Positions 16,801 through 60,800 of a stretch of DNA of 64,000 nucleotides are shown here, one piece after another. Below the pieces are notes generated by a model. It saw only the letters and a program-made list of their open reading frames with translations. It did no database searches and was not told the DNA's origin. The stretch is from Phoronis australis (Eukaryota; Animalia; Phoronida). The stretch is taken from NCBI GenBank assembly GCA_002633005.1, contig NMRA01000921.1, forward strand, positions 14,740 through 78,739, read 5' to 3'. How positions within the stretch are numbered: position 1 is the first letter of the stretch; each line of letters opens with the position of its first letter. Made by a program: the position numbers and the translations under genes.

Positions 16801-18272
16801 ATAGGCTAACGTTCCTGGAGAAACACGTATTAAGTTATAATTCTACACACATGGTTTGTACATAATGTCGGTTTGATATGCTTGTGTACAATGAAAACGA
16901 AATAGAAATTATTTTTCATGTGGTCATGCCAAATTTACCCAATACTGTAGAGGGTCTTCGAGCACACACAAACTGATTCTGGTTTGTATTTCCACTTGGC
17001 TCTATCTGCTTCATAACCAAAATCTATTTCACGTAGTGCGTATTTAATTTGTACTCAATACTTGTTTCTTCCACTAGTTAGTACTAGAGAACGGTGCGAA
17101 AACCCTTCCAAGACAACCTCTCGCAGCAGTTGACGAGCAGATGTATAAAATACACGTATGAGCAACCACTGGGCATTAAAATGTGTCTAGAGAGAAGTTT
17201 TCAATTCAAAGTTTTTTGCATAGTACGCTTTAGGTCTCGCGACGGACCAGTCCAGCTTGATTTGTGTAGATATTCAGTTTCAGTGTACATGTGGTCCCTC
17301 GGTGAACTAGTCTTGTGATGTTTTTTATCAAACTGTGCTTTTTAAAACTATTTGTCTCAGCCAGTAGGCCTAATGTTTGGTCCCGCCGCGACAGATCGAC
17401 TACTTTTATAGGGATAATAAGCACGGGTGCACTTTTGGTCTCGTAACGGACCAGGCCAGCCTTTTTGTGTTTTCTCAGTGTACATCTGCATGGTCGCTCT
17501 GCAAACTCAGTGGTCCTGTATATCTTTTCACCACCATGAACATGTTTTGGTTTCGTGAAACTGTTTTCAGATGATTTGTTTCCTGACACATTTGTCATTT
17601 TTCAATTGTTGTCAACATGATTCAGCTAAATAAAGTGATACCACGAAGAGATCTCTTCCTGGTGATACTTAATTGTTTATTGTCGCTTTTTTCAATAGAC
17701 TATGAGCTGAGAGCACCATCGTTCGCCACTTGTTCTCGTAACGAGACAAAACACATGTTTATTTCCGGACTAACAGAACATGTCTTCGTTCTTAAACAAC
17801 TTGAGGGTGCTGTTACGCGATCATGTAATATTCCATTTTTACGCCCCGTCGGTGCTCCTTATGCTCTTGAATATTTGGTAGTTGTCTAAACCCCACACTT
17901 TTTCGTATACGACTTTTCGTATGCTAAAAAAGGTGTGTGCAAGCAGATGTTCTAACAAAATTTTTGGCTGGTGACGTGACTCATACCCAGATGTGCACAA
18001 ATATGGTTTCGTGAAACTCATGAGCCTCGTTCATGTGAAGAAATCGAGAAGGGTTTTAAATTATCTTAAGAAAAACTCAAGAGACATGTTAAGTGCCAGA
18101 AACTTACCAGGATGCATAAAATTTCAGTATTTGGCTACAAAAACAAAACATTGTCTTACACCGGAGGGAGGAAACCCCCTCCCGACCTCCCCCCTCTCGG
18201 CGCAACGCGCCTCGGATTCGACCTTTGCGGGAATCCTAAACCCCCCTTACTGAATACGTAGATCCGCCACTG
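13837..18272. mobile_element. Non-coding TIR DNA element (CAGTGGCGGATCTACG...CGTAGATCCGCCACTG); its right part is assembled twice
   Basis: 16-bp perfect TIR at 13837 and at both 16501-16516 and 18257-18272. CAGGA flanks both ends. No transposase ORF recognised. Confidence 0.75.
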
Positions 18273-18554
18273 CAGGATCCATGAAGACGAAGTGCATGCC
18301 AAGTGGCGAATTTGAGTGGAAAAGAAATCTTTGTGTCCGACGTTGAATCAACTCTGTTTTAAAACCCCTTTGTTACAATTATTCTTAACATATTAGAATT
18401 ACGCCGATTTCTGTTAACTAGCGGTACCCGTAACCTCAGCATAAAACTCGTCGGCAAATATTTTTTAAATCTAGCGAAGAAATCGAAAATTGGGCGATTT
18501 TTGAAAATCATAATATTCCCAGTTCGTTTTCGGAAAGCTATGGTGCCATAGTGT
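15219..18554. repeat. 1.58-kb direct duplication (15219-16798 and 16975-18554), probably two haplotypes joined in tandem
   Basis: Offset 1756 with only scattered substitutions. The first copy is bounded exactly by single n bases (15218, 16799). Confidence 0.85.
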
Positions 18555-18779
18555 TGTTTCCATATAGTTTTACATTTGTATTTCAAAGTTTCTACATAAC
18601 AGTGGATGCAACACTTGAATGAATATCAGCATCAACAGCAAATTACAAGAAACCATCTAGAAAAAGACCTAACATTAACATTTCAAGTGAAGCCAACATA
18701 ATGAAAAAACAATAATTACCCGAAAAACTAGCAGAATAATAAGCAAAACACTTACAGTAAACTGTAATAACAATTAACA

Positions 18780-19530
18780 TGTTCATCAAACAAGTAACAT
18801 TTGAACATCATAACAACAAATTACAACACGGATGTGAAAAAACCAGGTTCATGAAAAACAAAAGTTAGTTTCTCAAAGCACTACGTGTTTTCCTCAACAA
18901 TAGAAAGCAATACAGTTTTAGCAAAGGAGTGCTTTACTGTGCGCTTTTGCGAGGTTTGCGGTAATGTAATGCCACAAATCAGATGTAATGTCCAAATGAC
19001 TAACAAGCAAAATAAACAGAGTGAATCTCAAAAACAACACCTTCATCAAACAAAAAAATGAACTAACATTAACAATTAACAATCATCAAAGAAATAATAA
19101 ATTGACATTACATAAAAAATATATGAATTTTTTATGTGGAACACAACACGGTTCAACGAAAAATAGACGTTAGGTTCTAAAAACAATAGGTATATAGCTG
19201 AGCACTAGAATAATGCCGTTTTAACATTAAAGTATATCATTGTCTGCCTCCGCTACGGTTGCCCACTATAAATCAGTTGAAAAGCCCAAAGAAGTAACAA
19301 GCAAAAGTCAGTAAAATCTAATAACAATTAATTAATAACAATCAAGTAGCCATTGAAAATCGTCAGGCATGTAAAAATAAAATGTGATTCATGAAAAACA
19401 AATTTTAAGTTATCAAGTCAACAAGCAATTAGATCACTGCGGAGAATTGAAAAAATAATGTTTTAGCTTTGGAGTTCATTGTTTACTGCCTTTGGGGTGA
19501 AGAAAATCAGCTGGAATGTTCAATATAAAA
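18780..19530. repeat. Diverged ~270-300-bp tandem triplication in the putative 3' UTR of gene B
   Basis: Recurring TTCATGAAAAACAAA...TTTTAGC/A...AAATCAG...TAACAAGCAAAA blocks near 18850, 19150 and 19390. Confidence 0.45.
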
Positions 19531-19566
19531 ACTGGCACACCGCTTGTCTTTGATGACTTCAAAGCT

Positions 19567-19649
19567 TTAAAAGGCGGTGATCATCACCATCACACCAAAG
19601 GCTGCCCCGAGTAGGATTTTGTTTGGAATATCGTCGCATCCAACCGACA
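19567..19649 (-). CDS. Gene B terminal exon encoding a GPI-anchor-like C-terminal signal
   Basis: Acceptor ctctttttgcag, phase 1. Translates (V)SVGCDDIPNKILLGAAFGVMVMITAF*: small residues, a polar spacer, then a 16-residue hydrophobic tail ending at the stop. Confidence 0.65.
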
Positions 19650-19929
19650 CTGCAAAAAGAGGTCAGTAGCATGTACACTTATTTTAAGATTTTTAATAAA
19701 ATAGCTGAAAACAGAACAACGGTAAACCTCACACTGTAATCAATATTCTTAAAACAACTTCAATCTCGCCAGCCCTCTCAATACGACGCACATTAAAGAA
19801 CAGGGTGGGTTATGTCATCTTCCTAAAAACCCAACTCTGTTTGAGGAAGACATTGAGGTGGTGTTCATGTGAATCACTTGCAGTAAACTGAAATTAATAC
19901 AGGATTATCATAGATGGAAACTTTTTTTG

Positions 19930-20230
19930 AAGAAAGCCAGGGGTTGAGCAAACTTAGAAGTGATAACGGACTGGAAACTGTCGAACTAACAAGTTGTAAT
20001 GATACTTCAAGTTTGATACAGGACCTGAAACAGGATGAAAGGGACGAAAGGTTTTGGTAGGTTGCAGGTCGGACGTGCCCATTCAGCTGGTACCGAGGTC
20101 TAATGTATTAGGATAGAATGCTTAGTCGGTGCCAGCGTGGGGCTGTGCAAAACGAAGTTCATGTTTTAATGCAAGGTCCTGCTTATATCGAACAGATATC
20201 ATCAATACATTCAACAGACTGAGGAATATA
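19930..20230 (+). pseudogene. Highly degenerate non-LTR retrotransposon (LINE) 3' coding end
   Basis: RMLSRCQRGAVQNEVHVLMQGPAY resembles the R-C-C-G-VEDE-H-C-x-x-Y C-terminal zinc-finger region of LINE ORF2. Confidence 0.35.
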
Positions 20231-20699
20231 GGATACTGTAAAGTGGGAAAGGCTCCCCTAAATCTGCCTACACATTGTCAACAATGTTAACCCATGAGTA
20301 ACGAAGAAGCCAAAACTCGATAGACTCGCTGGTTATTGCCAAGACCTGCTTATCAGAAGTAATACCATTTATTACTCATCCTCTTCATTGCTCACAGTTG
20401 CATAGTTTCTAATGCGTCCAGAAAGACACTGACAATGTATTGTATTCGGCCAAACGTTTGACAAGAGATTAAAACAAAACTGATCAGTCAACCTAACTTT
20501 TGTTCTTCAGAAATGGGGACGTTATAAATAGATCGAAGGGTAAGTTAGTTTTAGTAGATTGTATTTGATGCAACTGTTCCGATATCTATCAGTTTAGTTT
20601 GGATACATCACAGATTCAAGTTAATTTATATGACAATTTAGGAAGCATCAGAGTAATTTATTTTATAGCCAAGTTTCCATTCTGAGTTATCTGAAGTCA

Positions 20700-22050
20700 A
20701 TAAATGTGAATGAATTGTGCTTCTTTAAATTGTCCAATGACATACACAATTGTAATTTGAAAAGTATATTTTGGGAATTTGCTAAGATTAGATTAATTGG
20801 AAGCAACATGAAGTCAGGTTACTGCCCACAGCCACAACTGTAAACTAGTAAGATCATTGTCACAGCATGACAATAATGGACAATGCCTACATGTATGTGT
20901 ATTAAAGAAATTGTTATGGGAAGTTACTGACAGCAACCCCTTTAACAATTTGAAAAGGAATTCTTTAAAATCGGATGAGGAAATAATTGTAAACTCGACA
21001 AAAAGTGTGATTAGTGCTAAGAATCACAGAATGTTTTACTTTAAGCACTTTAGAATACAACATGAATGAATTGGTCAAACTTTCAGAAGAAAAATGCACC
21101 TAATGACCCCATGGGTGCACCAAATGACCTGATAATTTTGAATTCAAACTCAATCACATTTACTAAAAATATATGTAATTTTAAAGTCTCTAGCTCAAAA
21201 TTTTAGTTTGCACTCAATGACCTTCGACCTATTTTTCTGATTGGTTAGGCCTATTGCATAGTAAAGTAGAACGTTCGATTGGCATGGTGACTTACACCAG
21301 TGTCCTGAACCTGAAAAGAATTCCTTGAAAAATGTAGGGGATATAACATTTTGATCATTAGATGACCTTTGCACTAATTGACCCTATATGGTGCATTCTA
21401 AGCGTCTAGGGGAATCATTGTAAAGGCCGAGAAAAGCGTGTTTAATGCAGAGAATCACAGTTGTCTAACAGTTGACACATCAGAATACTTGGTGAATGAA
21501 AAGGTCAAATTTTCAGAACAAAAATGCACCTAATGACCCCATGTTTGCACTAAATGACCTGAAACTTTGAATTACACTGTACAGTACCTGTGCTTATCAG
21601 ACCTGTAAATTTGAAGTGTTTAGGTCAAAATCTTAGTTTGCACCTAATGACCTTTGACCAGTTTAACCTTATTGGATGACTCAATTACTTAGAAAAGTAA
21701 TTTCTTAATTTGCCTTATTGACTTATACATCTGTACCAAATTTGAAAAGAATAGCTTTTAAAATAAAGAAGGAGTAGCATTTTGACCTTTGCATCAAATG
21801 ACCTCTTCCGGTGCAATATGGAATATGATTATATAATGAATCAAAATTTATGTACTGTCAAAAATGATATGCTGAATTTAAATAACGTAGCTGCACCAAG
21901 TTTGGAGTTATTAAGCCTCTAAGTTTATCGGAAGAAGAATAAGAATAAGAAGAATGAGAATTAGAAGAATAAGAAGAATAAGAATGAGAATAAAATTGAA
22001 GAAAACCCAGGAACAACAATACTCTGCACTTGCACGCGAAGAGTACATAC
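20700..22050. mobile_element. Helentron/HINE-like repeat family 2 (TGACCT-rich ~410-bp core units, GAA/GAATAA microsatellite, terminal hairpin)
   Basis: Core units recur at ~21070 and ~21490 and match 48830-49715 and 46550-46990. Followed by GAAGAATAA repeats and a GTAC/ACTCT-type hairpin at ~22020-22046. Confidence 0.6.
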
Positions 22051-24152
22051 GCAAAGGTGAACCTGCACCTGTACACTCTGAAGTGCATGTAATCTGAATG
22101 CTTATCATTTCTGACTTAAGGTTTTCAATTTCCTTATGATAGTTCCATGGCAAAAATGGTGGACACGAAGCCAAATGTCATTTTAAAGGACCAAACCGCT
22201 ATTGTAGGGAATGCGCACAACCAGACTGTGGCAGTACGACGCCCGTGAATGGTTGCCGCAGTGCACCGTTATTTTAATTAATATCTTATATCAATCCAAA
22301 TTATCTTACACAATTCATTAATTTCAACCATATTTTATTGATATCATATATAAACAAGAATAACCTGATCCACCACTACTTAATTCATAATTGACATCAA
22401 TCGTATTTATGTCTGGCATAAGTCAGCAAATGAAAATCATTGACACATTCATTGCTTTATTTGAATAGCCCACATTATGTACACTGTTAATGCTTTCAAT
22501 GTTAACGCTCTTCTACCTTCGCCTAAATTAAACATTGTTAACGGCATAAAAGCACTATAAACAGCATAAATGAACTGTTTAATGCAATAAATTAACCGTT
22601 AATGGTGTTAATCAATTATTTATGAGTAAATAACTTTTAACTGCATAAATTAATTATTTGCAGAGCAAATTTATGGTGGGACAAATGAGTGAAAATGGTA
22701 GGCACGTAAATTAACTTCAAGCTAATGTCATTAAAAATACATTTGTGACGCAAGTAATCAACTCATGATGCAAAGAATGACATTCAGCTTCAAGAATTGA
22801 TGCGTTAGTAGTTAATTTTCGACGTTATAAGTTAATTTGTGCCGCAAATAATTGATATAGGTGTGAAAGTGCAAATAAAGAATTCGTCCAATGAAAAGTT
22901 AATTGACGGTGTTTATGAGAATTAATTTTTGCACAATTTATGTGGCCAACGATATTCTTCAACTCTCTCACATTTGTCCAAAGCCTCATTTCTGCAACAC
23001 CGAGTGCATGGCAAACATTTCTGAGTCAGTTATCATCTTCAATGGGTCACCAATAATGTCAATAATGTTTTATGGTTACAACCAAGGCTGATAGGCAGAT
23101 TTGTCAAGCAAACCAGGGCTTAAGTGTAGCCACAACATCTAAGCATTGACTCATTTTCATGACGTGCATTTTATACTGGTCAAAAGTTCAAACCGTCAAA
23201 ATTACACAATCATGTTTTGTAGTGATATGCTGTCACGAGTGAAGCATTTTAAAAACAACATTAAACTTTCATTGATACGTTGCCATCATTCTATTTCATG
23301 TTAAGTTACCTGTTCTTATTCAAAAGCATACATGAGGGGACTGACAATATAATTTAAGCTGGTAAAACAGCAAAATGATATCGGGAGATGAAGTCAATCT
23401 CTTTTCAAAACGATTATTCAACTGGACAAAATTTTAAATCAATCTTGATCCTGAAGTTGCCTTAAAAGCAAACAACACATCATACCACGCAAAACTTTCA
23501 CCAATCACTGTTTGGGGTGTGGGGACTGTTGTTAAGCTCATCATTCCTAACTAAGATAATTATTAAAATCTCAAATAGCCATGTTTCTGCGAGGCGCGAA
23601 TGTACTGTGTATGAAAAAGAAGTGAAAGTATGAAATGAGGAAGAATATCTCAAAATTTGAAAATAAAAACCAAAATGAAACATGTTTCTGTGACATAATT
23701 GATACAGATTATATTGTCATCGCATCGACAAATACAGCAGTTAAGAGAACACATTTTGCACTCAATTCATCAGAGTAAAAACAAATGGAAACACAAGACT
23801 TAATGTAAATAGACCTTCAGAAGAAATGCTCTTCAGAGAATAAGTCGTTCAGCGGTAGGGCACGATACAATTCCGATTTCCCATTTCCTTAAACCATTTG
23901 CAAAAATATATTAGAAAATTTCATAATAGTCTGAAAACTGTTCTAAAACAACGAGACACGCCTTACACGCATGTCTGTTGTTATCCATAAAAAGACCACA
24001 GGACAGTTGATCAAGAAACATTGAGTTCGTAAAAGATTTACACTTTGAACAAATCAAATGCATTAATAAGAAAATGATATTAATCGTTCTTGTGAAATTG
24101 CCACATGAGTGAGCACACTTAATTTTTTAACTAGAGCAAAACATGGACGTAC

Positions 24153-24188
24153 CTCCACCTTCTCCATTTCCAATTGGTTTAACGGTAT
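24153..24188 (-). CDS. Gene B stalk micro-exon A (36 nt): (D)TVKPIGNGEGG
   Basis: tttacag|ATACCGTTAAACCAATTGGAAATGGAGAAGGTGGAG|gtacgt; phase 1/1; paralogous to four other copies. Confidence 0.75.
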
Positions 24189-24256
24189 CTGTAAACCATA
24201 ATTTAGCTTTACATTAAATGTTCTTGTAAAAGTGGAGTCTCCACACAAATGGAAAC

Positions 24257-26200
24257 ACAAGAGCAACGCAGAGCGTTGAAATGCGCCCACAATTGCACCG
24301 CATACGGTATCCTTCTAGGGTTGTTTATTGGACCATAAAGTGGCCAGTAGAGGGCATATATGTAGTATGTTGTACTTTGCAAACTGGAAAGGCATGGTCA
24401 TTATCTCCTCAATAGGCTAGGGGCAAAATGTGAGTGATCTTCATAATACAAGCACATCCTATACATCAGTTGCTTAAAGCACCACCGAAACATAGAACTA
24501 AAAACAAATTTACCAACATACGAGATTAGCACAGCATTAGAATGCCAGAAACAAATTTCTACTTGGAAGTTTTCCTACATAGTCACGAAGTAACACAAAG
24601 TATACACCTGAAGACCTATGAAAATACAGAGGTCAATGTAAAATACTTAAATTGCCACTAGAGGCATACCGGTAGTCAGAATCATCCTAAAGTCGTCATC
24701 GTCCGTTGTCAACATCACATAAATACAATTGCTAAATTTAGTAAAGATCCTGCAAACGGTTTGGGAGATACAGCCATGGGCGCAAAAAAAACTGCCACTA
24801 GGAGGCGCCACAGTGATCAAAGTCATCGGAAATTCAGCGTCAACCGTCCTCTTCATAGTAAGAACATACATGCCAATTTTCACAATCATACTTATAGCGG
24901 TTTGGTTGATAGAGGGGTGGACGCCAAAAAACAGACTCAAAAACGGTAAAAATGGCTACTGGGTGTCGCAAACTAGGTCAAATCCATCCGAAAACAAGAG
25001 GATAGCGTCATCCCACAATTAGGTGCCTACATACCAAATTTCATGAAAATCCGTTAAGGACTTATGAAGATACAGAGGTAAACGTAAAAAAATAAAATTG
25101 CCACTAGGGGGCACACTGGTAGGCGGATCCGTCCAAAAGTCATCGGCTGATAACATAATATAATTACACTTATTAAATTTTCTAAAGATCCTGCGTACAG
25201 TTTAGGAGATACATCCATAGGCGCAAAAACAAAACAAAACTGCCACTAGGAGGTGCCACAGTGGTCGAAATCGTCTGAAAATCATCGTCAACCGTCCTCT
25301 ACATAGCAAGCATATACATGCCAATTTTCACAATCATCCTTCGAGCGGTTTGGTTGATAGAGGGGTGGACGCACAAAACAGGCTCGAAAACACTAAAAAA
25401 TGGCCACTAGGTGGCGCAAACTATGTCGAATCCATCTGAAAACGGGAGGATAGCGTCATCTCACTAATAGGTGCCGACATACCAAATTTCATGAAAATCC
25501 GTTCAGGACTTTTGAAGATACAAAGGTAAGCGTAAAAAAATTAAAATTGCCACTAGGGGGCACACCGGTAGTCGGATCCGTCCAAAAGTCGTCATCTTCT
25601 GTTGTTAACATCATATAAATATACTTACACAATTTCGTAACGATCCTGCGAACGGTTTAGGGGCAGCCATAGGCGCAAAAAAACAAAACTGCCACTAGGA
25701 GGCGCCACAGTGGTCGAAATCGTCGGAAAATCATCGTCAATTGTCGTCTACATTATAAGCATATACATGCCAATTTTCACAATCATCCTTCGAGCGGTTT
25801 TGTTGATAGAGGGGTGGACGCACAAAAACAGACTCGAAAACACTAAGAATGGCCACTAAGTGGCGCAAACTATGTCGAATCCATCTGAAAACGGCAGCAT
25901 AGCGTCACCTCACTAATAGGTGCCTACACACCAAATTTCATGAAAATCCGTTCAGGACTTTAGAAGATACAAAGGTAAGCGTAAAAAACTAAAATTGCCA
26001 CTAGGGGGCACACCGGTAGTCGGATCTGTCCGAAAGTTCGCACATGCTGTCCCATTCATGAATAGAACATACCCGTATGTGCCAAATTTCATGAACGTCT
26101 GTCAAAGGGTTTTGGAGATAAAGCAGCGGACGCTTGACGCCACCCGGACGGACGGAGATGACGGCATAATGCGTCCACATATAAATATGTGGGCGCATAA
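24257..26200 (+). mobile_element. Helentron/HINE-like non-autonomous element, family 1, with ~450-bp satellite core
   Basis: 5' ACAAGAG start with subterminal ATGCGCCCAC (24281-24290). Core units begin AAATTGCCACTAG at ~24650, 25095, 25545 and 25993. GACG microsatellite, then 3' hairpin ATGCGTCCACATATAAATATGTGGGCGCAT. Confidence 0.75.
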
Positions 26201-26654
26201 CAAGTGACAAAAAGTTAATGTGCGCCAATGAAACACGGAATTTTAAATCTAGTCTGCTCATAGTTGGTAGAATGAGCATACAGGGTACAGTTGGCACCTT
26301 TCTTGTGTTCAGAAAGACTATGGCACAAAATTCGAGTGGTCATGCCAAGGTGAAACTCACGCCAATCACTATAAATCACATACCCACAGCAAATGGTTTT
26401 CTGGGGTTAAGGTTCTTGATCATGCCAAACTTAATCAGTGAGACTATTCACATACAGGCCCCTGAATGCTGGGATGTCATGCAATAGGAAAGTTTGAATA
26501 TTATAATACTGGTAGCTTCCTTTTTGCTTTCCCAACATTTCTTACTTCTCACTTGGTGAAAAATTCTTTTAAAAGCGACATGTGGTCAGCCCTCAATTAT
26601 GATCAGTGTTCAGTGATCAAAGTTAATTTTGAGAAAGAGAAAATAATGTCATAC

Positions 26655-26690
26655 CTCCACCTTTTCCATTTTCTGTTGGCTTAACAGTAT
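26655..26690 (-). CDS. Gene B stalk micro-exon B (36 nt): (D)TVKPTENGKGG
   Basis: tttccag|ATACTGTTAAGCCAACAGAAAATGGAAAAGGTGGAG|gtatga; phase 1/1. Confidence 0.75.
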
Positions 26691-27531
26691 CTGGAAATCA
26701 TAATTTAGTTGCACCATCAATATTTTTATACAATGTACGTATCCATACTTCGAAGTTGAGGCTCAAAAGAAATGAAAATGCAATTGGTGAAATTTTGTAG
26801 TCCGTGTACAGGTATGTCTGCTTTTCTAATTTATACTAAACTGAAAGAAATGATACTAAAATTTAGTGGCAAAGGAGTTCAGCAATTTTTCTTATTTTAG
26901 TACCAAAAAACTTGTTCATCAGTAGTTAGAGCAGCCAGGACTTTGAATCGTGACAATTGTCTGACATAGTCATAGCGCCACCATGTGGATTAGCTTCTAA
27001 AAGTACGCATTGTAACAAATTCCGTGATGGAGCAGGAGTACTTTCGAACATATGATGACCTAACAAAATGTGTTAACAGAGAAGCCCTACACCAAATGAA
27101 TTAAAAAATGCCAAATAAGAAAATGAATATGCTTTCACAAGGTGCAAATGAAATAAAAATCCCCATTCATGCATAATACTATATGTAATTGAAATTTCTT
27201 TTGTTTTTGGAGAACATGCGTTTATAAATGTATTAGCGGAAAATCAATAAAAGACAGTTATGATACTTGGCGTTTCCCAAACGAAGTGTACAATTCTGTT
27301 TTCTCCATTCCTTGCAACATTTCTCAAACATTTGGAAGAGTATATGTTTTCAGCAATGTCATAATAGTTTGAACATACGGACCCATTAGCAGTTCGTACA
27401 AGGGGATTTGCAGTTTCGAAAAAAGACTCGAATTGCGTTGATAGGAGCTGATGCTGTTCATGCTAGAAATGAAAGAGGGGTATTGTCTGTCTAATGATGA
27501 GTTTTTAAATTTGAGAAAAATATTGACATAC

Positions 27532-27561
27532 CTCCACCTTCTCCACTTCTAGTTGTAGTGT
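27532..27561 (-). CDS. Gene B stalk micro-exon C (30 nt): (D)TTTRSGEGG
   Basis: tttgcag|ACACTACAACTAGAAGTGGAGAAGGTGGAG|gtatgt; in-frame 6-nt deletion relative to the other copies. Confidence 0.75.
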
Positions 27562-27758
27562 CTGCAAATTATAATTAAGTTTTATATTAAGTATTCATGT
27601 CTTTAATAACAAAAATGTGGTGCACAACAAATGCGCCACTAGGTGGCACGAAATATGCCGAATTCATGTGAAAATAGCAAAATGTCATTGTTTCTTTAAT
27701 GGAAAGGTAATGTCTGCCTAATATTAAGTTTCTAATTTGGAGAAAAATAATGACACAC

Positions 27759-27794
27759 CTCCACCTTCTCCACTTCCAGTTGGTTTAATAGTGT
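27759..27794 (-). CDS. Gene B stalk micro-exon D (36 nt): (D)TIKPTGSGEGG
   Basis: tttgcag|ACACTATTAAACCAACTGGAAGTGGAGAAGGTGGAG|gtgtgt; the donor is weaker than in the other copies. Confidence 0.7.
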
Positions 27795-27859
27795 CTGCAA
27801 ATTATAATTAAGTTTTATGATGGTAAGTATTCATATCTGTAAGCAGAAGTTGGTGCATG

Positions 27860-28200
27860 AGAAATGCGCCAATGAATGCACCGCCAATGATCTGCTTCGA
27901 GGGATGTTTATTTATATTCCAAAATGACCACTAGATGGCGCGAAATATGCCAATCTGAAAATAGCAACATGTCATTGTTTCTTTAATGGAAAGCTATTTA
28001 CCAAATTTCATGAAAAATTGTCAAATAACGTCAGAGAAAATTAGGAAAACTGAAAAAATGAAACTGCCACTAGGGGGCACAGCTTTTGCTGGGTCTATCC
28101 TCAAGTCGTCGTCCATTGTCAACGTCATATAACTACATGTGCTAAATTTAACAAAGATTCTGCAGTGGGTTTAGGAAGTGGAAAAAAAATGTCACTAGGA
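27860..28200 (+). mobile_element. Truncated family-1 HINE-like fragment
   Basis: AAATGCGCCA start, CCACTAGATGGCGCG, CCAAATTTCATGAAAA and AACTGCCACTAGGGGGCAC core motifs. Confidence 0.6.
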
Positions 28201-30945
28201 GGGGGTTGTACTGAAACCCCCTTGATCTTCAACCCCCTCGATCCACGACCCATGAGGTGCAACCCCCTCTACCCATGAACTGTGGCGATAGAGGTATCTG
28301 TGCCATTTTTACCTATTACACAATCTTATTACGTCGCTGGGCACCTTTCCCATAAGACATACTTTAACGCCAGTCTGCTCTGGCTGAAGTCTGGTGATAG
28401 GAAACAGAAAGTGGCATGGGAATTCCGGTGGTCTTGAATAAAGCATTGTGAGCGCGCTAGACGTCATCCCTATATCGTGCAAGTCAACATAACGTGCAGT
28501 ACAGTTAGACAAACGGCTATCAATGGCACAGTTCAGATAAACTTAGGGAGAGAGAGTACGTTAACGTGAATGTACATAATTTCATATTTTTATTATTCGC
28601 TCTATATTCGTTTACAATATACTCCATATAATGCTGGAATACTTTTTATGTAGTTAAATTTTTGTTTTTCAAACTGTATTTACTGGTGATTTTATAGTTT
28701 TGTTAGTTCCTCAAACTCACTAATAAATGCTTATCTGCCAAATTTTATGAAAATCTGTGGAGGATCTTTTAAGATACAGACTGAGGTAAATGTGAAAATC
28801 TAAAATTTAATGAAGATCCTGCAAAGCGTTAACAAGATGCAGGCATAGGTGCCAAAGTCAAACAAAATTGCCACAGTCTTATCAAATTTACCTGATGATG
28901 ATTACTGATTATTTTACAAACGTCATTTTCCAGCTACACATTAGCTTCATTTTTGTTTTCCCAGCATTTCTTACTTCTCATTTGGCCAAACACTAATATT
29001 ATTCTCGTGAAAGCGGCATAAGGACAACCTACTATTAACNNNNNNNNNNNNNNNNNNNNNNNNNNNNNNNNNNNNNNNNNNNNNNNNNNNNNNNNNNNNN
29101 NNNNNNNNNNNNNNNNNNNNNNNNNNNNNNNNNNNNNNNNNNNNNNNNNNNNNNNNNNNNNNNNNNNNNNNNNNNNNNNNNNNNNNNNNNNNNNNNNNNN
29201 NNNNNNNNNNNNNNNNNNNNNNNNNNNNNNNNNNNNNNNNNNNNNNNNNNNNNNNNNNNNNNNNNNNNNNNNNNNNNNNNNNNNNNNNNNNNNNNNNNNN
29301 NNNNNNNNNNNNNNNNNNNNNNNNNNNNNNNNNNNNNNNNNNNNNNNNNNNNNNNNNNNNNNNNNNNNNNNNNNNNNNNNNNNNNNNNNNNNNNNNNNNN
29401 NNNNNNNNNNNNNNNNNNNNNNNNNNNNNNNNNNNNNNNNNNNNNNNNNNNNNNNNNNNNNNNNNNNNNNNNNNNNNNNNNNNNNNNNNNNNNNNNNNNN
29501 NNNNNNNNNNNNNNNNNNNNNNNNNNNNNNNNNNNNNNNNNNNNNNNNNNNNNNNNNNNNNNNNNNNNNNNNNNNNNNNNNNNNNNNNNNNNNNNNNNNN
29601 NNNNNNNNNNNNNNNNNNNNNNNNNNNNNNNNNNNNNNNNNNNNNNNNNNNNNNNNNNNNNNNNNNNNNNNNNNNNNNNNNNNNNNNNNNNNNNNNNNNN
29701 NNNNNNNNNNNNNNNNNNNNNNNNNNNNNNNNNNNNNNNNNNNNNNAGATTATGTTTCAATGGTTTTTATGCAGATTCACGATGTTTTTAAAACGTCTAC
29801 AAACGGATCATATGACTTTAATAGCTTATTTAATGCATTAGAGTAAAATCAATGAAAAGACAGTTCTCGCACACAGAAACACAACGTCCTTTTGGACTAA
29901 AGACCCTTCTGTACGTAGGATTTCAATGCAGTTTTTTTGTTTTCCCCATTCGTTGCACCATATTCGCAATATTTGGAACAAGAGCAACGAAGAGCGTTGG
30001 AATGCGTCAACGAATTTGAAGTTGGGAACAATGACTTGAATTGCTTTGATACGAAAATGATGCTGTTAATGCGGCGTATCGACGGCTACCTACTGACCGA
30101 GAATGTCTGTGTTCCAATTTCCTAAAAAAGTGAAAGTTGCACAGAAATGGCAACGTTTTTGCACCGTACAAGAGTGTGGAGTGACGGTACGGAACATACC
30201 ACTCAGTCAGTAGCCACACTTTTTTCTGCATATTTCAGTCTAGGAATCGGGTTTCAACCGAACACAGAAGCGGCGTTAGGAGGAAGGACTGTCCACCATG
30301 TAGTGTATTTCTAAATTTTATAAATAACGGACAGAATGCTTCCATTCTAGGATGAGTGATGCTACGCCCTGGACCCGGGCTCAGAAGGAGTGCTAGGACA
30401 CGTAGGCTGATGCACGGTGTTTAGACCCCACTAATTCTACATGGCAACAGTGAATACGAGTGACCAAGGTTTAACACAGCCTTTGAGAGTTTACCACTCC
30501 TTGGTTCAGTTGGTTGTAGCTCACTTATGTCTGCGGCATTGATCGTGCAAGTGGTTCAAGTTTGTATGGTCTCAAAGTCGATGACATTTGTTGTCCGATT
30601 CTTCTAGTATTTGATTGTATTCCCGTATCTATACTCTCCTCTCTGTCCGCATAATAATTGTCAAAATCTCGCTCAAAATCGACCTCGTCTTCTGATCTGC
30701 TGTGTTCTGCCATTAATGCAATTGATTGTCAAGTGACCAAATATCTTCCTTCCATTACATCATTTGCAAATAACAAATTTTCCTTCAAAATTAAAAAATG
30801 GCTACCATTTGGCATAAAAAGGACTTATTCAGTTAGATTTTATGACATTCATTTCATATTAGCTAACTGAAACCTCAAAGACTAAGGAAATGCATTGTAG
30901 GAATTCATTAGGTTAATTTCAAGTTTAAGAAAAATATTGACATAC

Positions 30946-30981
30946 CTCCACCTTCTCCACTTTCAGTTGGCTTAATAGTGT
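30946..30981 (-). CDS. Gene B stalk micro-exon E (36 nt): (D)TIKPTESGEGG
   Basis: tttgcag|ACACTATTAAGCCAACTGAAAGTGGAGAAGGTGGAG|gtatgt; phase 1/1. Confidence 0.75.
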
Positions 30982-32257
30982 CTGCAAATTATAATTAAGT
31001 TTTATATTAAATATTCATATCTATAAGCAACAGTTGGTGCACAGCAGAAAGATGCAGGATGTGAAAAGATACTGTGCATGTATAGTTGTGACACATGGAA
31101 TGTCCTCATTTTCTAAATGGCAATTGTGGCAATTGCACTTCATTGAAATAAATGAAGTTGAACGTACACAAGTATTCCGTAAGTTTTTGGATTGGAAACA
31201 GGGGTTTGTAGCCAGGACCCGTAGATCTAATCTATGTCCACGAGTGTTTAACTGGCCGGACAACCTGTATGACGTGGTCGGAGCACCACCACCACGTGGA
31301 TTCTGGAAGTACGCCATTGCAGCAAATCCATGGATGACTGAGCAAAAGAATCTTCAAGCAAATGGTGAACTAACAAAACTTGTGAAACTTGTTGATGAAG
31401 AATTTAAGTTCTACTCAGAACACCAAAGTGATGTTCCATGAGTCTGGATACTTCGATAACGTGCAAAGCAAGGTGCTCCCGACGATTGTCATTGGAATTG
31501 AGTAATGCCTGAGAAGTCACATGATGACAAAAGTAATGTTGATTATCAACAGAGTAGCAATTCACCAGTCTGTCAGAATTATGCAGAGGTCGATTATATA
31601 GTATGCAACCAAAGACCACTTGAAGTTTTTAGCTAGCTTGTGAATACATCAAAACAAACACGTCCCGTACAATATTTCATCAAAATCCTTCAAGCACCAC
31701 GTTAAACGGACAGGTCCGAAAATGAAGGTCAGAATCTGATGTATTCTCTTCAACTGAAACACATACATCATAATACCACTATATCAATTATGGGGCTTGT
31801 TAGAATTTGAGATAAAACACAAAAAAGAAAAGAAAAGGCTGGTATTAATCATCCTTTGAACCCTGTAGCATAAAGAGATGAATAGTAACTGAAAAACCTG
31901 GAGACGTAAACATAATAAAAATGGCCGCAGGGGGAAAATTGGTATCCAATTCAAAATGGTGAGGTGTCGTCGTCTCTATAATATCAAAATATTTACCTAA
32001 TTTGAAAAAAAATCTGTCCAAAAATTGGGTATAGAATTTAAAAAACAACTTGACATTAGGGGGCAAATAAGAGGATAAACCACCATTTTATTCAAGCTCA
32101 ACTTGAAACAGACAGCTAGATTCAATATACGCGACTCACACCACATGAGAGGGCAAAATTTTTGTAGCAATTATTCGTAAGCAAGATCTCCATTTCAGGA
32201 CCGACCAAACTTGTGATAATTATACATCATTTGCGTTTTCCAACTACACAAACACAC

Positions 32258-34158: not shown

Positions 34159-35867
34159 AACAAGAGCAACGCGGAGCTTTGAAATGCGTCCACGAATGCA
34201 TCGCAAATGCTGTGCTTTTAGGGTTGCTTATTTGTGTCATAAAATGGGTACTAGATGGCTCAAAAACATGTAATCCTTCCGAATATGGGAACATGTCACT
34301 GATTCTTTAATAGAAATCTATACACAAAATTCCAAATTTCATAGAAATCCACCAAGGAACTTCAGAGAAACAAAGGAAAATGGAATAAAATGAAATTGCC
34401 ATAAGGGGGCACTCCACCTGTCTATTGTTTGCTTCATATAAATACATTTACTAAATTTAATAAAGATCCTCCAGTGGATTTAGGAGATACAGCTTTGGGC
34501 GCAAAACAAAACAAAACTACCACTAGGAGGAGCCAGAGTAGTCAAAGCCGTCATCATCAACCGTCCTCTTCACACTGAGAACATATATGATATGCTTAGG
34601 ATGATTTGGTTGATAGAGAGGTAGACTCGAAAACAGCAAAAAAATGGCCAATAGGTGATGCAAATTACGTTGATTCTATCCAAAAATGGGAGGATTGCGT
34701 CATCTCATCAATAGATGCCCGTATTCAAAATTTTATGGAAATCTGTTGAGGACCTTTGAACATACAGAGGTAAACGTAAAACTTAAATTGCCACCAGGGG
34801 GAATATCAGTATTCAGATCCATCCCAAAATAATCTTCGTTCGTTGTCAACATTATGTAAACACACTTATTAATTTTAGTAAAGATCCTACAAACAGTTAA
34901 GGAGATATAGCTATGGGCACAAAAACAAACTGTCACTAGGAGGCGCCACAGTAGTCAGTCATCAGAAAATCATCATCAGCCGTTAACTTTATAATAAAAA
35001 CATATATGCCAATTTTCACAATTATCCTGAAAGCGGATTGGTTTATAGAGGGGTGGACGCCAAAAGACAGACTCGAAAACAGTAAAAACGGCCACTGGAT
35101 GGCAAATCCATCTGAAAATGGAAAGACAGCATCACCTAACAGAAGCCTGTACGCCAAGTTTTATGAAAATACTTGAGGACCTTTGAAGATTCATAGGAAA
35201 ACATAAAAAATAAAATTGCCACTAGGTGGCACACCAGCCAACAGATCTGTCTGAAAGTCATTGTCGTCCATTCTCAAAATCATATAAATAAATGCACTTA
35301 CTAAATTTAGTAAAGATGCTGCCAAACGGTTAAAGAGATAAAGGCATAGGCACCAAAAATAAAACTGCCACTAGGAGGCGCCACAGTAGTTGAAGTCATC
35401 AGAAAATCATCGCCAACTTTCATCTTCATAGTAAAACATACATGCCAATTTTCACAATCACGCTTAAAGCAGTTTGGTTGATAGAGGGGTGGACATCAAA
35501 AAACAGACTTGAAAACAGTAAAAATGGCCATTAGGTGGGGCAAACCACCTCGAATTCATCCGAAAACGGGAGGATGATGTCATTTTACTACTTATGTACC
35601 AAATTTCATGAAAATACCTTGAGGACCTTTGAAGGCAAATGTAAAAAAACAAATTGCCACTAGGGGGCACACCGGTAGCTGGATAAGTCGGAAAGTTCGT
35701 TCATGACGTCCCATTAATGAAAGGAATACATGTCCAAAACTTCATGAGCATACCTCAATCGGTTTTGGGGATGCCAGAAGCTGGGCACCGGAAGCCAGAC
35801 GGACGCCGCTCGGACGGACGCAGATGACAGCATAATACGTCCATATATAAATATGTGGGCGCATAAT
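34159..35867 (+). mobile_element. Helentron/HINE-like element, family 1
   Basis: AACAAGAGCAACGCGGAGCTTTGAAATGCGTCCAC start, about 3 core units, GACG repeats, and 3' hairpin ending ATATGTGGGCGCATAATAA. Confidence 0.75.
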
Positions 35868-37822: not shown

Positions 37823-39469
37823 AAAAAATGACACCATGAGTGTACCACATATCCATGCTCGTTCTTCTAAGAACGCGGGAACACCTGTCGATGGCCGGAG
37901 AATAGACCAACCGAAACGTCGTGACAGAGTAAATAGACTAGAGGTCGGTGTAAATAGACCAAGAGATTTTAAAAATAGTTGTCTCATGTTTACTGTTAGG
38001 TATAGTGAAGTATACTGCAGTTGCAACTTCACTCCAGCCTCGCTATATCACAATAAGTACTGTGTTGTAATTTTATTGAGTGTTAACTAGCTTTAAATGT
38101 CAAGTATCAAACAGTTGCTCTGATTTTAAAATCAAAGTTTTAACTTGTCTTATTTCATATCTTGATTCTCAAAAACCTACATGTCCCAGACTGTTTAGGA
38201 GCTGTTTCAATTAAATGCAAGTGCTAGTTGAAAACATTCTTTGAATGTGCTCACCAAATGGCACCATAAAAGCAGCTGGACAGATTGTGGCAAACAATTT
38301 ATGGTTGCAACTGGGATGTCCCCAACCTCAACAAACTCCAACCTCTTGAAATGTTTATCTAAAACATGCTTTATCAGTTAGTTGTCAAGGTTACGAACTT
38401 AAGCGGCCTTTTCAAACTGCCTGTAACTAAAGGACTTACAATACAGCTGGATTGGTAAGACTGTACACTGAACTTAATGTAGATATATGCAGTATAATAT
38501 TTGATTTCATTCAACAAGAAATAATTACTTCATAAGCATTCAGTCAAAGTTGGAAAAATCTTTCAATTTTGAGTAAAATTAATTGCTGGGTTTTTTATTA
38601 TTCCTGGCTATCTGTTCATTATCAATCTCACTGCAATGATGGGAAACCCCCATTTCAGTTGATACTTCGTATCATGGTGATGACAAAATGAATTCATGGA
38701 TCATCCTTATCATTATTCAAAGTTAAGTAATAAGAAATTTCATAAATTATTCTAACTGGTGAAAAGACGTGCATGAAAATTATATCAACCGTGCGTTAAA
38801 ATGTGAATTTTTGTGAAACATCATGTACCATTCATAGGAATTCAGAAATGGTTTATAAGAATTGGATTTAATTAGATTTGTTTGCAAGCTACCAGTTACA
38901 TTTCTTTTCCAATCAATGTGGAATTTACACAAAACGTGTATCGTGAGTAGCTCGAAGCCTATTGTATTTGGTTGAAATCAGACGCAAGATGGCACTGTAG
39001 ATACCATTTTTCGCTGTCTTGGTTTGCGGAGCCGTAGATTTACAGGTTCTATAATTTTTCTGATTTCTTTTTAGGGGAAAAATCATTTAAATGACCATAA
39101 GAAGTGTCCAATTTGTTTTTTTCCTTAGGACTTACTGTTTTGGAGTTATTCAAAATTTTCCGGCGACTGCTAGATAATCGAATCAATTTTTGTTCGGCAT
39201 CTCTGGCAACACTTGCCGTATCTTTCTTGAAGCCAGTATATAGATAGTGCTATCTGCATTGTGCCATCCATTTCACACTATAACCTACCTTTTTCGAGAT
39301 ATTCAAGATTTACTAGCCACATGAATGTTGTTCTGTCGACTTACTGGTACTTTTAGCTGCACTTCGGTCGCCTATTATATTCGTGACAGAGATTGTTTGT
39401 CTGATTGACATTGATTTACTTAGTGTTTATCTAGTCAAAAGCGCGAGCACTGGTTTGTGGATGAACATG

Positions 39470-40333: not shown

Positions 40334-40659
40334 AAAATAAAATTGATGAGTTTCTAGACATCTAGCCTACTATATTTTAATCTCTAACAATAAGACACTC
40401 ACAGAAAAGATGAGTCTTAAAGTGAAAGCGAGGTCACAAGGCAGATCTGTCTTGTGACGAAAATGAAAGCATAGAAGCGCTGACATTAAACTTGTCATTG
40501 TGCTTTTTCTCCTCCGTTTTAAAGGGGTGGGGGGGTGCAAAATGGAAATTATTATCTATTCTGGGCTTGAGATTCGTTGGCAGGACAAGACCATAGCAAC
40601 CGTGACGACTATGATCACATTGGTGGATTACAGTACCACAACATGATGAGCATAGTCAC

Positions 40660-43259: not shown

Positions 43260-43583
43260 CGGTCGCCTTAAGGACCTCAGTTTCAGCGTACAAAGTAGCC
43301 TGCCTGTTGGACACTTGACATCTAAACTGTACGCCATCATCAGCTGCATCCAAGTTGACCGTCAGTGTGCTGGTGCTGTTAGTGGTTCCATCATTGTTGT
43401 TGGCAGTAGTCTTGGTAACATTCTCTGTTATGTCTGTGTAGGCACCGCTACTTATTCGCCGTGACCACACCATAGATGCCTGTGGTTTGCCCAAATTGGC
43501 CGTACATATGAGAACAGTTGGTCCTAATCCACCAAGAACAGGCTGCGTCAGGGCACCAGATATAGATGGTGTACTTGGACGGA
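43260..43583 (-). CDS. Ig-superfamily gene B: C2-type (CD80/nephrin-like) Ig exon
   Basis: aacag|...|gtaagt, 324 nt, phase 1/1, open. Translates RPSTPSISG...TVLICTANLGKPQASMVWSR...DGTTNSTSTLTVNLDAADDGVQFRCQVSN...; canonical C, GxP, W, S-x-L and D-G-x-x-F-x-C are present. Confidence 0.92.
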
Positions 43584-50731: not shown

Positions 50732-50746
50732 TTGTTGTTCAAACCA

Positions 50747-56161: not shown

Positions 56162-56214
56162 TTATATTTCTTATGAGTTAGTATTTGTTCAGCAACGAAT
56201 TGCTGAGGGCGGAG

Positions 56215-57878: not shown

Positions 57879-60800
57879 TATTGTTCTTTTGGGATGAGTT
57901 CAGAATAAAGTATAATTTTTTCTGGACAACAGGATTCGCTGCTCATTTTTTCTAGTTCTTGAGCAATTTTACACCTAATGTCATAGTAGTTATCACTTTT
58001 CTTGTGCAGTTACTTCAAATGAAAAAAATCCAATTAGATTGTCATCCAGATTTTTTCTAGTGTTGTCCGATTTGAAGATTGGTTTCCGGTGCCAAATTTT
58101 GCAAGAAATAAGAGTTTTGAAGTCAAATTTCTCAACAACGTGCAGGTCAAACCTATGGAAATGTTTAGATTCGTAAAATATAGTACTTATTGACATTAAA
58201 AACCCCAAAATTATCTGGCTCCCAAAAATGAGCCACGGAAGTGATTTTCTGGACTTCCTACATGTAGAGTCCAATGGCTTAATATATAGGACATAAAAAC
58301 TACTTTCCTTGAGATCCTTTCTAAGACCACAAAATTTGGTCAAATACATGTAGTGTTTACACCTACATAAAGAACATGGGTGGCAAAGTTTAAAGGTTCC
58401 TTTCACGTCGTTTAACTGTCAGTGTCGGCTACTTAACGGATGTGTCAGAGGATTTTGAAACAAGTCGCCCATTGCACTGACAGTTATTGTTCTCACCGTC
58501 GTTTTCGCCCTCTACTGGCAGCGCCTGGTTGCATCCCACAGCCAGTATGAGTACAATCAATATTGCCACGCACTTCATGACTTTTAGTTTTCTGTAATTC
58601 AATGTCAGATCAAGTTACGAAGAAAGAAGATCATAAAAGGAGAAGCAATTATATGAGACATTAATCTCAACCAAAATGCGAATAATCGTCCGCAAATGCT
58701 TCCCCCCTCTATTGAAAAATTATCGTTTTGTATTATCAAGTACAAACTGAAACAACATGGTTGATGCCAGTGTAAAATAACATTTTAAGAAGTTGGTATG
58801 TCGGTGCCTTTTGACGTAGGTTGGAGTATTTTGCACAATATTACATCGATTTGCCCCACCTTGTGGCATCTAATAGAAAGTCGGGATTCTCATGATTCAT
58901 CACTGGAGTCCTAAGGGGCAGCAGTTGGCTAAGGGATCCGGGTTAGTGAGCCTTTCTCAATAACAATAATGAGATTGATGGCACTCTCACATAAATCCTA
59001 TTATTTGGGCACATACCATTATACATGTACAGCCCTTCATGCTGCATATCCAAGTTTTCTTTAGTTCCTACCAAGTCCGATGGTAGCGCTGTTTGTTCTT
59101 TCTCTCCAGCTTCCTGTTGGTCCAGCCTTAAGCAACAGTACATTGACTCGTAAGTTTTCCTAATTAGACAATTTTATACCTCTCCCACCCTTCCTACCAT
59201 GGGTAATTAGTCAACCGATGTGTACCTTTCCCATGCTCACTCCCATTTGTCGAACACAATCTCCTGTTAGTTATTGTTGTTTTTACAGTAACTGTTGGTA
59301 TCTTCTTCAAGCCCGGAGCGTGTTACCGTTAGCCAAGAACCAGTGTCATTGGCTAGCGACCCGACTTGTACTCGAACATCCATTGCTGCAGCTTGCTTCT
59401 CTCAACCCCGCTCACAGCTCTTGGCACATTCTGAGCCACAGCACCACGTTCCTTACAATGTATCTTTTTATCACTCCGGCTGCTCTGCTCACTCACCTTG
59501 TCCGGAACCTGCTTTACAGGTTGTTATAGCCCAGTTGGCCTTTTGGTGCACCCACTTTATATGATATTTGCCTGTTTTGCAGTTTGTACCCACTCGGTAA
59601 TTGTTATTGAATTTGCCGTTGTGTTCGACTCAGTTGGTAGGCAATCGGCCATTACTAATTTGGTATTATGTACCCATTTGGTATTATGCTAACCTGTGCC
59701 ACTTAGTATCTGATATTCAATTACACTTTGGGTATTGGAAATGTGTGTGTTATCTCTTGTAATTAATGAACCCATCTGGTTCCTTCTATGAAATATTTAT
59801 TTGCAGAGCCGTGACCCTGAAATTCCCAATACAACTTAAAATATATGTTATTCTTTGTTTTATTTGTCCCCAATAATATGAAACATGTCTAAAAAAACCT
59901 ACAATTCTAATCTGGTGGGCCCAGTAAGGATATTGACGGAGTGTGCATCGGATGCCAAGTGCGTAGTGTTCAGATGGTCTCTACTGCATTGTATCAACTA
60001 AATAACGAACAGTTAAGAGCCTAAAAATATGTACATGTACTAGATTTCCATTACTACAACAACAACTAAAGAATGTCCAAGGTTTTCCTAGAATTTTACA
60101 CGATGCGGCGAGACGCATTCGTCAATCTCGTTTACCTCGATGTATCGGCATTATGGTTTCTAAAAGAGTCCCTGCATAAGAACATCAGACAAATTGCAAT
60201 ATGATGGGACCGTGATATGTCATGATTTTTAGAATTGATGCATTGCAAATATCCCTTGGGTGAAATATTTCTAAAAATAGAAAAATAGTTTTGTCTCTCG
60301 TCATTTAGTAAATAAACAGCTGCGTGTAATGTCTAATTAGGGTGATGACATTGTTGACATGTTTGAGAGAAAATTAAACCGCTTTGTGGTGGCTTAAAAA
60401 TCTACACATGCTAGATATGGGAATGACAAACCCAAATCAGATTGAATGATTTTTGATATTTTTAACAACTTTTTAATTGTGCGCTCTTTCACCCGCTTAA
60501 AACGGTTATGTACATTTAGACCTCTTTCAAGGGCCATGGAGTCAAAGGCGCAGAACTGCCTACCGTCCTTACGTAGTTCCCACGATAGCCACAGCTTCCT
60601 TCTTTTATCAGATGTCTATATTTCTATGGACAGCACCCAGCTTAATTCCCAAACTTACACTTTGGCGAAGCCACTTTTACCACTAACACCTCAAGGCGCC
60701 AGAAAATGTAGTGCGTATAAACAAAATTACTATAATTGGAAGTAAATTTAATAAAAACAACCGTTGAAAGATTTAGTCAACTTCATCCTATCTGTTTCGA

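What the first reader, a model, noticed from the sequence alone, without database searches (positions are those of the whole stretch)
24153..30981. Tandem array of duplicated, frame-preserving micro-exons encoding Ser-Gly-x-Gly stalk repeats of an Ig receptor
Seen: five paralogous 30-36-nt minus-strand segments (30946-30981, 27759-27794, 27532-27561, 26655-26690, 24153-24188). Each has a YAG acceptor and GT donor, all are phase 1/1 and stop-free, and the only indel is an in-frame 6 nt. The surrounding intronic DNA is more diverged and broken up by TEs. Spliced, they read DTIKPTESGEGG-DTIKPTGSGEGG-DTTTRSGEGG-DTVKPTENGKGG-DTVKPIGNGEGG. Known: Ser-Gly-x-Gly near acidic residues is the xylosyltransferase acceptor motif for chondroitin/heparan sulfate chains. 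Inference: three cassettes carry the motif (SGEG) and two have an AGT>AAT Ser/Asn switch that removes it. Because any subset splices in frame, cassette choice could tune both stalk length and the number of GAG chains on an Ig-domain surface protein. None of these exons is called as such in the ORF track.
Basis: partly seen in the sequence, partly recalled or inferred. Interest (0 to 1): 0.88.

Follow-up and report, generated by a model that had tools for sequence, protein, structure and literature searches.

The report
Variable micro-exon stalk of Ig protein
RNA reads show that tiny repeated exons are spliced into a stalk of varying length beneath an antibody-like domain of an animal protein that is likely lipid-anchored at the cell surface; the length differences likely come from different alleles or gene copies more than from regulated splicing, and sugar-chain attachment is untested.

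Summary
The five 30/36-nt minus-strand segments are present as described. Stranded RNA-seq of the same species label confirms GT-AG splicing of c1/c2-type, c4 and c5 cassettes between a C2-set Ig exon and a terminal exon that reads like a GPI signal. Cassette 3 is not used: no junction listed, about 1% of c2 depth. A stalk ladder exists. Forms include C2>c4>c5 (no Ser-Gly), C2>c1/2-type(s)>c4>c5, forms lacking c4, and variant cassettes absent from the window. However, the C2>c4 form carries one distinct C2 sequence (57 and 59 reads, agreement 1.0), and the reads show three or more C2 ends, a V-set-like end and at least two terminal-exon types. Cassette number therefore most likely differs between alleles or paralogs, as with IgG3 hinge exons. 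Regulated skipping from one allele is neither shown nor excluded. The Ser-Gly site is lost in several ways (S>N, G>E), and GAG attachment is untested. This is a real gene feature and a new invertebrate case of a known kind; the 'tunable proteoglycan' reading is only partly supported.

The parts
43260..43583 (-). C2-set Ig-domain exon (324 nt, phase 1/1), upstream partner of the cassettes
   Evidence: Pfam C2-set_2 E=2.8e-8, above cut-off; boundaries; loose read ends upstream of c2-type and c4 match this exon's 3' end at 26-29 of 30 letters (compared by hand)
30946..30981 (-). cassette c1, 36 nt, (D)TIKPTESGEGG, Ser-Gly present
   Evidence: joints c1>c4 81/72/1 and c1>c1 63/49/0 reads; c1 and c2 differ by 2 nt, so reads cannot be assigned individually
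27759..27794 (-). cassette c2, 36 nt, (D)TIKPTGSGEGG, Ser-Gly present
   Evidence: c2-type>c4 137/118 and c2-type>c2-type 175/120 reads
27532..27561 (-). cassette c3, 30 nt, (D)TTTRSGEGG; not used in the RNA examined (pseudo-exon, absent from those alleles, or used in another tissue)
   Evidence: depth 3.0/4.2 against 380/315 at c2; none of the 8 joints listed touches it; tandem copy of the c2 unit, 82% over 169 nt
26655..26690 (-). cassette c4, 36 nt, (D)TVKPTENGKGG, no Ser-Gly
   Evidence: c4>c5 161/161/1 reads; C2>c4 direct 57/59 reads
24153..24188 (-). cassette c5, 36 nt, (D)TVKPIGNGEGG, no Ser-Gly
   Evidence: c5>terminal exon 83/78/3 reads
19567..19649 (-). terminal coding exon, (V)SVGCDDIPNKILLGAAFGVMVMITAF*, GPI-signal-like hydrophobic end with no cytoplasmic tail
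   Evidence: mean Kyte-Doolittle 2.4 over 15 aa ending one residue before the C-terminus; spliced to c5
18600..19566 (-). 3' UTR, transcribed at least to 18600
   Evidence: depth 58-116 in X1/X2, 3-5 in X3, 0 in X4; minus-strand orientation
58497..58578 (-). candidate signal-peptide exon (MKCVAILIVLILAVGCNQALPVEGEND, phase-1 GT donor); link to this gene not shown
   Evidence: no RNA laid here
29040..29746 (.). assembly gap between c1 and c2 that may hide further cassettes

Best explanation
The segments are tandemly duplicated, frame-preserving micro-exons that are spliced into a Thr/Pro/Gly-rich stalk between a C2-set Ig domain and a likely GPI-anchor signal, and the stalk-length and Ser-Gly differences seen in RNA likely reflect different cassette sets in different alleles or paralogs of a polymorphic Ig gene family rather than regulated exon choice. 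Shown: splicing, several stalk lengths, several upstream and downstream exon types, non-use of c3. Inferred: that short exon-plus-splice-site units of about 100-290 bp were copied locally and then gained or lost by unequal exchange, since phase 1/1 and multiples of 3 make any gain or loss harmless to the frame; that the stalk is a flexible, probably O-glycosylated spacer setting the height of the Ig domain; and that c3 fell out of use after its 6-nt loss. Xylosylation of the Ser-Gly cassettes is possible but untested.
For: GT-AG joints c2-type>c4, c4>c5 and c5>terminal in X1 and X2. Reads joining C2 directly to c4 (57 and 59; 26% and 31% of the listed entries into c4) carry one C2 end, reading AVKET, with agreement 1.0. 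If agreement is a per-letter mean, at most about 4 such reads could come from the other C2 types. Reads entering c2-type cassettes have other consensus ends: ALKET (X1, 117 reads), VLKET (X2, 80), VVKDT (X1, 52) and a V-set-like end SNLVVD (53/40). That is more types than two alleles of one locus allow. Downstream of c5-type pieces the loose-end consensus is mixed (agreement 0.69-0.74), so there are two or more terminal exons. Variant cassettes absent from the window occur (DTTKPTGSEEGG 26 reads; DTIKPTGSEEGR 21/16). The terminal exon and UTR differ from the window in all reads at 7 listed sites, with one more mixed site. pN/pS among the four 36-nt cassettes is 0.62 on few sites, so sequence constraint is weak. 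Precedent: the IgG3 hinge has two to five exons depending on haplotype (PMC7555362, passage).
Against: Agreement of 0.94-0.95 at the C2>c2-type loose end leaves room for AVKET reads there, which would mean skipping within one allele. c2-type>c5 joints lacking c4 (29/25 reads, 13-15% of the listed entries into c5) and a V-like exon joined straight to a cassette could both be alternative splicing. A few reads (depth about 1-3) cover the intron just downstream of c3, so c3 may be present in those genomes and skipped. No DNA run of the RNA samples was available, the samples may be pools, and only about 18-19% of each run was read.
Confidence: 0.6

Rival explanations
1. One gene uses regulated alternative splicing of the cassettes (CD44-like) to set stalk length, with allelic variation on top.
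For: All cassettes are symmetric. Acceptors are weak (ad hoc score -0.6 to 1.0, against 6.5 and 10.2 for the terminal and V exons). c3 is skipped, c4-less joints make up 13-15%, and a V-like exon joins a cassette directly.
Against: The C2 exon's own acceptor scores as weakly (1.1), so weak acceptors do not single out the cassettes. No VLKET/ALKET-type C2>c4 consensus is seen (agreement 1.0 for AVKET). X1 and X2 give similar shares, with no sign of regulation.
Confidence: 0.25
2. The stalk is a part-time proteoglycan region: Ser-Gly cassettes carry chondroitin/heparan chains, and alleles, paralogs or isoforms differ in chain number (0 to 2 or more). This can hold together with either source of variation.
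For: SG followed by E at +2 and D at +5 in c1-c3 fits the SG-plus-acidic preference of xylosyltransferases in disordered regions (PMC10424144, passages). An expressed form with no SG cassette (C2>c4>c5) exists beside forms with SG cassettes.
Against: The motif is short and common in Gly-rich linkers. Acidic residues lie mostly C-terminal, with Lys at -4, whereas PMC10424144 reports acidic residues mostly N-terminal of the Ser at CS sites. The site is lost by S>N in c4/c5 and by G>E in two RNA variants. There is no biochemical evidence.
Confidence: 0.3
3. The cassettes are functionless duplications of intronic or transposon-flanking DNA.
For: c1-c3 share identical 20-nt upstream flanks, and the c2/c3 duplication includes a 74-nt piece of interspersed repeat. 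c3 is indeed unused.
Against: Hundreds of spliced reads use c1/c2-type, c4 and c5 at exact GT-AG boundaries.
Confidence: 0.02

Closest known systems
Human IGHG3 hinge exons (and TRGC exon duplication/triplication)
   Same: Short duplicated exons lengthen a flexible linker next to an Ig domain, and exon number varies by haplotype: two to five IGHG3 hinge exons (PMC7555362 figure-legend passage; PMC6404786 passage; TRGC seen only as a reference title).
   Different: Invertebrate Ig protein with a GPI-like tail and no Cys-rich hinge; Gly/Thr-rich 10-12-aa units with or without Ser-Gly; DNA-level copy variation is inferred here, not shown.
CD44 variable exons (v3 carries heparan sulfate) and APP/appican (exon-15 skipping creates a CS site)
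   Same: Exon content of a membrane-proximal region decides GAG-site presence (PMC2199889 abstract; PMC4314671 passages).
   Different: There the exons are not tandem copies of one micro-exon, and regulated splicing and GAG attachment are shown; here neither is.
Schistosoma micro-exon genes (MEG, SmVAL6)
   Same: Arrays of very small exons giving length variants of secreted or surface proteins (PMC4015677 passages).
   Different: In MEGs micro-exons make up to 75% of the coding sequence; here about 30% of the known coding part (174 of 581 nt), attached to an Ig domain. Skipping from one allele is not shown.
Lophotrochozoan V+C2 Ig-superfamily surface proteins
   Same: The C2 domain is 30-51% identical to single-stretch hits; the two named among the 4 looked up are from Lingula anatina and Gigantopelta aegis.
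   Different: No close homolog. None of the 150 listed hits has SGEGG/NGEGG or the KPT..G.GG unit; 5 have only a TxKPT word.

Membership tests
Micro-exons (up to 51 nt in the broad definition, recalled) | Short exon spliced at both ends in mRNA | tested here: met
   GT-AG joints on both sides of c1/c2-type, c4 and c5; not met for c3
Duplicated hinge/stalk exons (IgG3/TRGC-like arrangement) | Paralogous symmetric short exons between an Ig domain and the rest of the protein | tested here: met
Duplicated hinge/stalk exons (IgG3/TRGC-like arrangement) | Exon number differs between alleles at DNA level | not testable with these tools
   no genome held, no DNA run listed; only indirect linkage in RNA
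CD44-type alternatively spliced stalk | Several exon combinations from one allele | tested here: inconclusive
   several combinations exist, but the shortest is tied to one C2 type; reads could not be phased
CD44-type alternatively spliced stalk | Inclusion changes with tissue or state | tested here: inconclusive
   X1 and X2 similar; X3 has 1-3 reads per joint; tissues not given
Proteoglycan core protein | Ser-Gly with nearby acidic residues in a low-complexity region | tested here: met
   c1-c3 read SGEGG followed by D (or V before the tail); criterion from PMC10424144 passages
Proteoglycan core protein | GAG chain actually attached | not testable with these tools
   needs biochemistry
GPI-anchored protein | C-terminal hydrophobic stretch with no cytoplasmic tail, preceded by small residues and a polar spacer | tested here: met
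   hydropathy; no GPI predictor was run and the omega site was not determined
GPI-anchored protein | N-terminal signal peptide on the same transcript | tested here: inconclusive
   candidate exon 58497-58578 found, link to C2 not tested by RNA
Schistosoma-type micro-exon gene (MEG) | Most of the coding sequence made of micro-exons | tested here: not met
   174 of 581 known coding nt

The most novel reading that the evidence does not exclude
An invertebrate GPI-anchored Ig-superfamily family uses a modular array of one duplicated micro-exon, each copy with or without a xylosylation site, so that both genotype and splicing set the number of glycosaminoglycan chains and the reach of the Ig domain: a digital, one-exon-one-chain proteoglycan switch on a polymorphic recognition molecule.
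Probability: 0.12. Interest if true: 0.72.

Novelty: new member of a known kind. Interest (0 to 1): 0.4.

Why it matters
The finding shows an unannotated-looking, polymorphic Ig surface-protein family in an invertebrate whose stalk is built from duplicated micro-exons, a likely independent parallel to the IgG3 hinge. Gene prediction easily misses such exons. If GAG chains are confirmed, forms with zero versus several chains on a fast-evolving Ig protein would be a neat test of how glycan load and spacer length shape adhesion or recognition. If not, it is a routine variable spacer.

Tried and rejected
No whole genome is held. No RNA holder was listed by the run index; the runs laid came by species label. 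Homolog searches with the C2 exon and the V exon among longer proteins found none at E<=0.001, which is weak evidence. The profile search gave only distant Ig hits. A metagenome scan for a 28-nt cassette pattern gave 0 matches. A candidate extra 48-nt exon at 22365-22412 was rejected: c5 joins the terminal exon directly and no joint to it is among the 15 shown (313 not shown). The 97.6% repeat 1-1132 = 44484-45615 was first read as a gene duplication and rejected, because it lies inside an element with terminal inverted repeats inserted at unrelated sites. An upstream V exon for this gene was sought in 43584-64000 by motif scan, pattern and tblastn with 152 queries; none was found. c1>c1 and c2>c2 self-joints are not taken as proof of extra copies: most reads at c2 carry AAG like c1 (321 of 522 and 247 of 432) while no c1-type GAA row is among the 40 shown (15 hidden), so hybrid cassettes fit c1 and c2 equally. 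Rare c4>c4 (2/4) and c4>c2-type (1/4) joints were left unexplained. Three look-ups in earlier findings returned nothing. No structure or complex was predicted, as it would not bear on a disordered stalk.
Full report
Observation. An 18-nt core occurs 5 times in the window against 0.02 expected, and 0 of 100 shuffles reach 5. The alignment shows one in-frame 6-nt gap in c3. Mean pairwise identity over 10 pairs is 0.86 in the exon, 0.86 in the 20 nt upstream, 0.72 in the 20 nt downstream, 0.44 at +21-40 and 0.28 at +41-80. Conservation therefore covers exon plus splice signals, including a branch-point-like word 17-18 nt upstream of each cassette, not the exon alone. Ten exon columns vary, 4 at third and 6 at first or second codon positions; pN/pS among the four 36-nt copies is 0.62 on few sites. 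The c2 and c3 units are a direct tandem duplication (82% over 169 nt plus 85% over 74 nt).

The gene. The upstream exon 43260-43583 encodes a C2-set Ig domain (Pfam C2-set_2, E=2.8e-8; Atlas first hit a C2-set_2 cluster at 0.97). The terminal exon from 19649 encodes 27 residues ending in a hydrophobic stretch (mean hydropathy 2.4 over 15 aa) with no cytoplasmic tail. I read this as a GPI signal; that is inference, as no predictor was run. A signal-peptide-like exon lies at 58497-58578, beyond a BEL/Pao retrotransposon; its link to C2 is untested. No V exon was found between C2 and the window end. A V-set exon at 6574-6942 (E=1.8e-7) lies downstream of the stop and belongs to another gene. No close homolog was found. 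The two named relatives among four looked up are lophotrochozoan, and none of 150 listed hits has the stalk unit.

RNA, first lay. Four runs of the same species label were listed, three of them raw RNA reads. Laid on 18600-31300 (about 18-19% of each raw run read), they show minus-strand transcription of the terminal exon and UTR (depth 58-116 in X1/X2, 3-5 in X3, 0 in X4). Joints at GT-AG boundaries, as X1/X2/X3: c5>terminal 83/78/3, c4>c5 161/161/1, c2>c4 90/74/2, c1>c4 81/72/1, with self-joints c2>c2 78/49/0 and c1>c1 63/49/0. Only 15 of 328 joints were shown. All reads differ from the window at 7 listed sites of the terminal exon and UTR and one more site is mixed, so the RNA comes from other haplotypes than the assembly.

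RNA, second lay. X1 and X2 only were laid on the repeat-poor stretch 26560-27850 (X3 and X4 left out for lack of depth). c1- and c5-type pieces fall on c2 coordinates there; c5 is recognised by its first six letters. All 8 listed joints, as X1/X2: c2-type>c4 137/118; c2-type>variant>c4 24/16; c4>c5 170/172; c2-type>30-nt piece 56/29, of which 29/25 carry the c5 start, so c4 is missing; c2-type>c2-type 175/120; c4>c4 2/4; c4>c2-type 1/4; a 29-nt go-back 0/4. None touches c3, whose depth is 3.0/4.2 against 380/315 at c2 (about 1%). Self-joints number 0.8-1.0 per listed entry into the c2-type run, so about two c1/c2-type cassettes per such transcript, matching c1 plus c2 with c3 left out.

What sets the cassette number. 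Loose ends (12 of 30 rows shown; translated by hand) give the exon upstream of the first cassette. Reads entering c4 directly (57/59; 26% and 31% of listed entries into c4) have a C2 end reading AVKET with agreement 1.0; on a per-letter reading of agreement, at most about 4 of them could be another type. Reads entering a c2-type cassette have consensus ALKET (X1, 117 reads, 0.95), VLKET (X2, 80, 0.94; 29 of 30 letters as in the window), VVKDT (X1, 52, 0.89) and a V-set-like end, SNLVVD (53/40, 0.95-0.97), about 70% like the end of the window's V exon. Downstream consensus is mixed (0.69-0.74), so at least two terminal exons exist. Variant cassettes with Ser-Glu instead of Ser-Gly occur. X1 thus holds more 5' types than two alleles of one locus, so paralogs or pooled animals contribute, and the shortest, Ser-Gly-free stalk follows one sequence type. 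Against this reading: the 0.94-0.95 agreement leaves room for AVKET reads at c2-type; c4-less joints and the V>cassette joint could be splicing choices; and a few intronic reads beside c3 suggest it may be present and skipped. No DNA of these samples was available.

Mechanism. Shown: spliced symmetric micro-exons, stalks of about 24 to 48 or more residues, and forms with and without Ser-Gly. Inferred: local duplication of exon-plus-splice-site units and their gain or loss between alleles or paralogs, tolerated because the frame is kept; a flexible Thr/Pro/Gly spacer (G 17, T 10 of 53 residues) lifting the Ig domain; a GPI anchor. Untested: xylosylation. The SG sites have Glu at +2 and Asp at +5, which fits the SG-plus-acidic preference, but human CS sites have acidic residues mostly on the N-terminal side (PMC10424144, passages), where these cassettes have Lys at -4.

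Comparison. The closest arrangement is the IgG3 hinge, two to five exons by haplotype (PMC7555362, passages; PMC6404786, passages). Exon-controlled GAG sites are known from CD44 v3 (PMC2199889, abstract only; a text search of the held copy found nothing) and appican (PMC4314671, passages). Micro-exon arrays are known from Schistosoma MEGs (PMC4015677, passages), a class whose micro-exon share this gene does not reach. Eight literature searches (listings and abstract starts only) showed no report of such a stalk array in an invertebrate Ig protein. The species name was not available to search, most subscription papers are outside the library, and no supplements were read, so this is weak evidence of novelty. 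The 51-nt micro-exon definition is recalled.

Verdict. Observation confirmed; interpretation partly supported. A real, expressed, variable micro-exon stalk, most likely varying by allele or paralog (0.6), with regulated splicing (0.25) and GAG attachment (0.3, independent of the source of variation) open. New member of a known kind; interest 0.4.

Noticed in passing
window 6574-6942 (-): V-set Ig exon of a second gene downstream (Pfam V-set E=1.8e-7). RNA shows a related but different V-like exon end spliced directly to a c2-type cassette (53/40 reads), suggesting a family with V-only or V+C2 members sharing the stalk.
   Followed up: partly
window about 50150-56790: BEL/Pao LTR retrotransposon (Peptidase_A17 E=3.4e-44, RVT_1, integrase hits) with repeats 94% alike over 583 nt at its ends; the pol frame is interrupted by stops. 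It lies between the candidate signal exon and the C2 exon.
   Followed up: partly
window 44180-45806 and 1-1510: Non-coding element with terminal inverted repeats and subterminal 21/31-nt repeat arrays; two copies 97.6% alike over 1132 nt, one inserted into a decayed retroelement-like stretch (about 1500-4600).
   Followed up: partly
window 24257-26200, 34200-35800, 39400-40400: Interspersed repeat built of about 449-nt units; reads pile up on it at depth 500-1250, nearly all in the same orientation as the gene, in all three raw RNA runs, including X3 where the gene itself is barely expressed.
   Followed up: no
window 15219-16798 = 16975-18554; 7151-7360 = 7439-7648: Near-identical direct duplicates (98.8%, 99.5%) next to single N letters; likely assembly overlaps.
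   Followed up: no
window 26655-26690 and 27759-27794: Rare out-of-order joints c4>c4 (2/4 reads) and c4>c2-type (1/4): back-splicing, template switching or a further haplotype.
   Followed up: no
window 18600-19649: Gene expression differs about 20-40-fold between runs X1/X2 and X3 of one study, hinting at tissue- or stage-specific expression.
   Followed up: no
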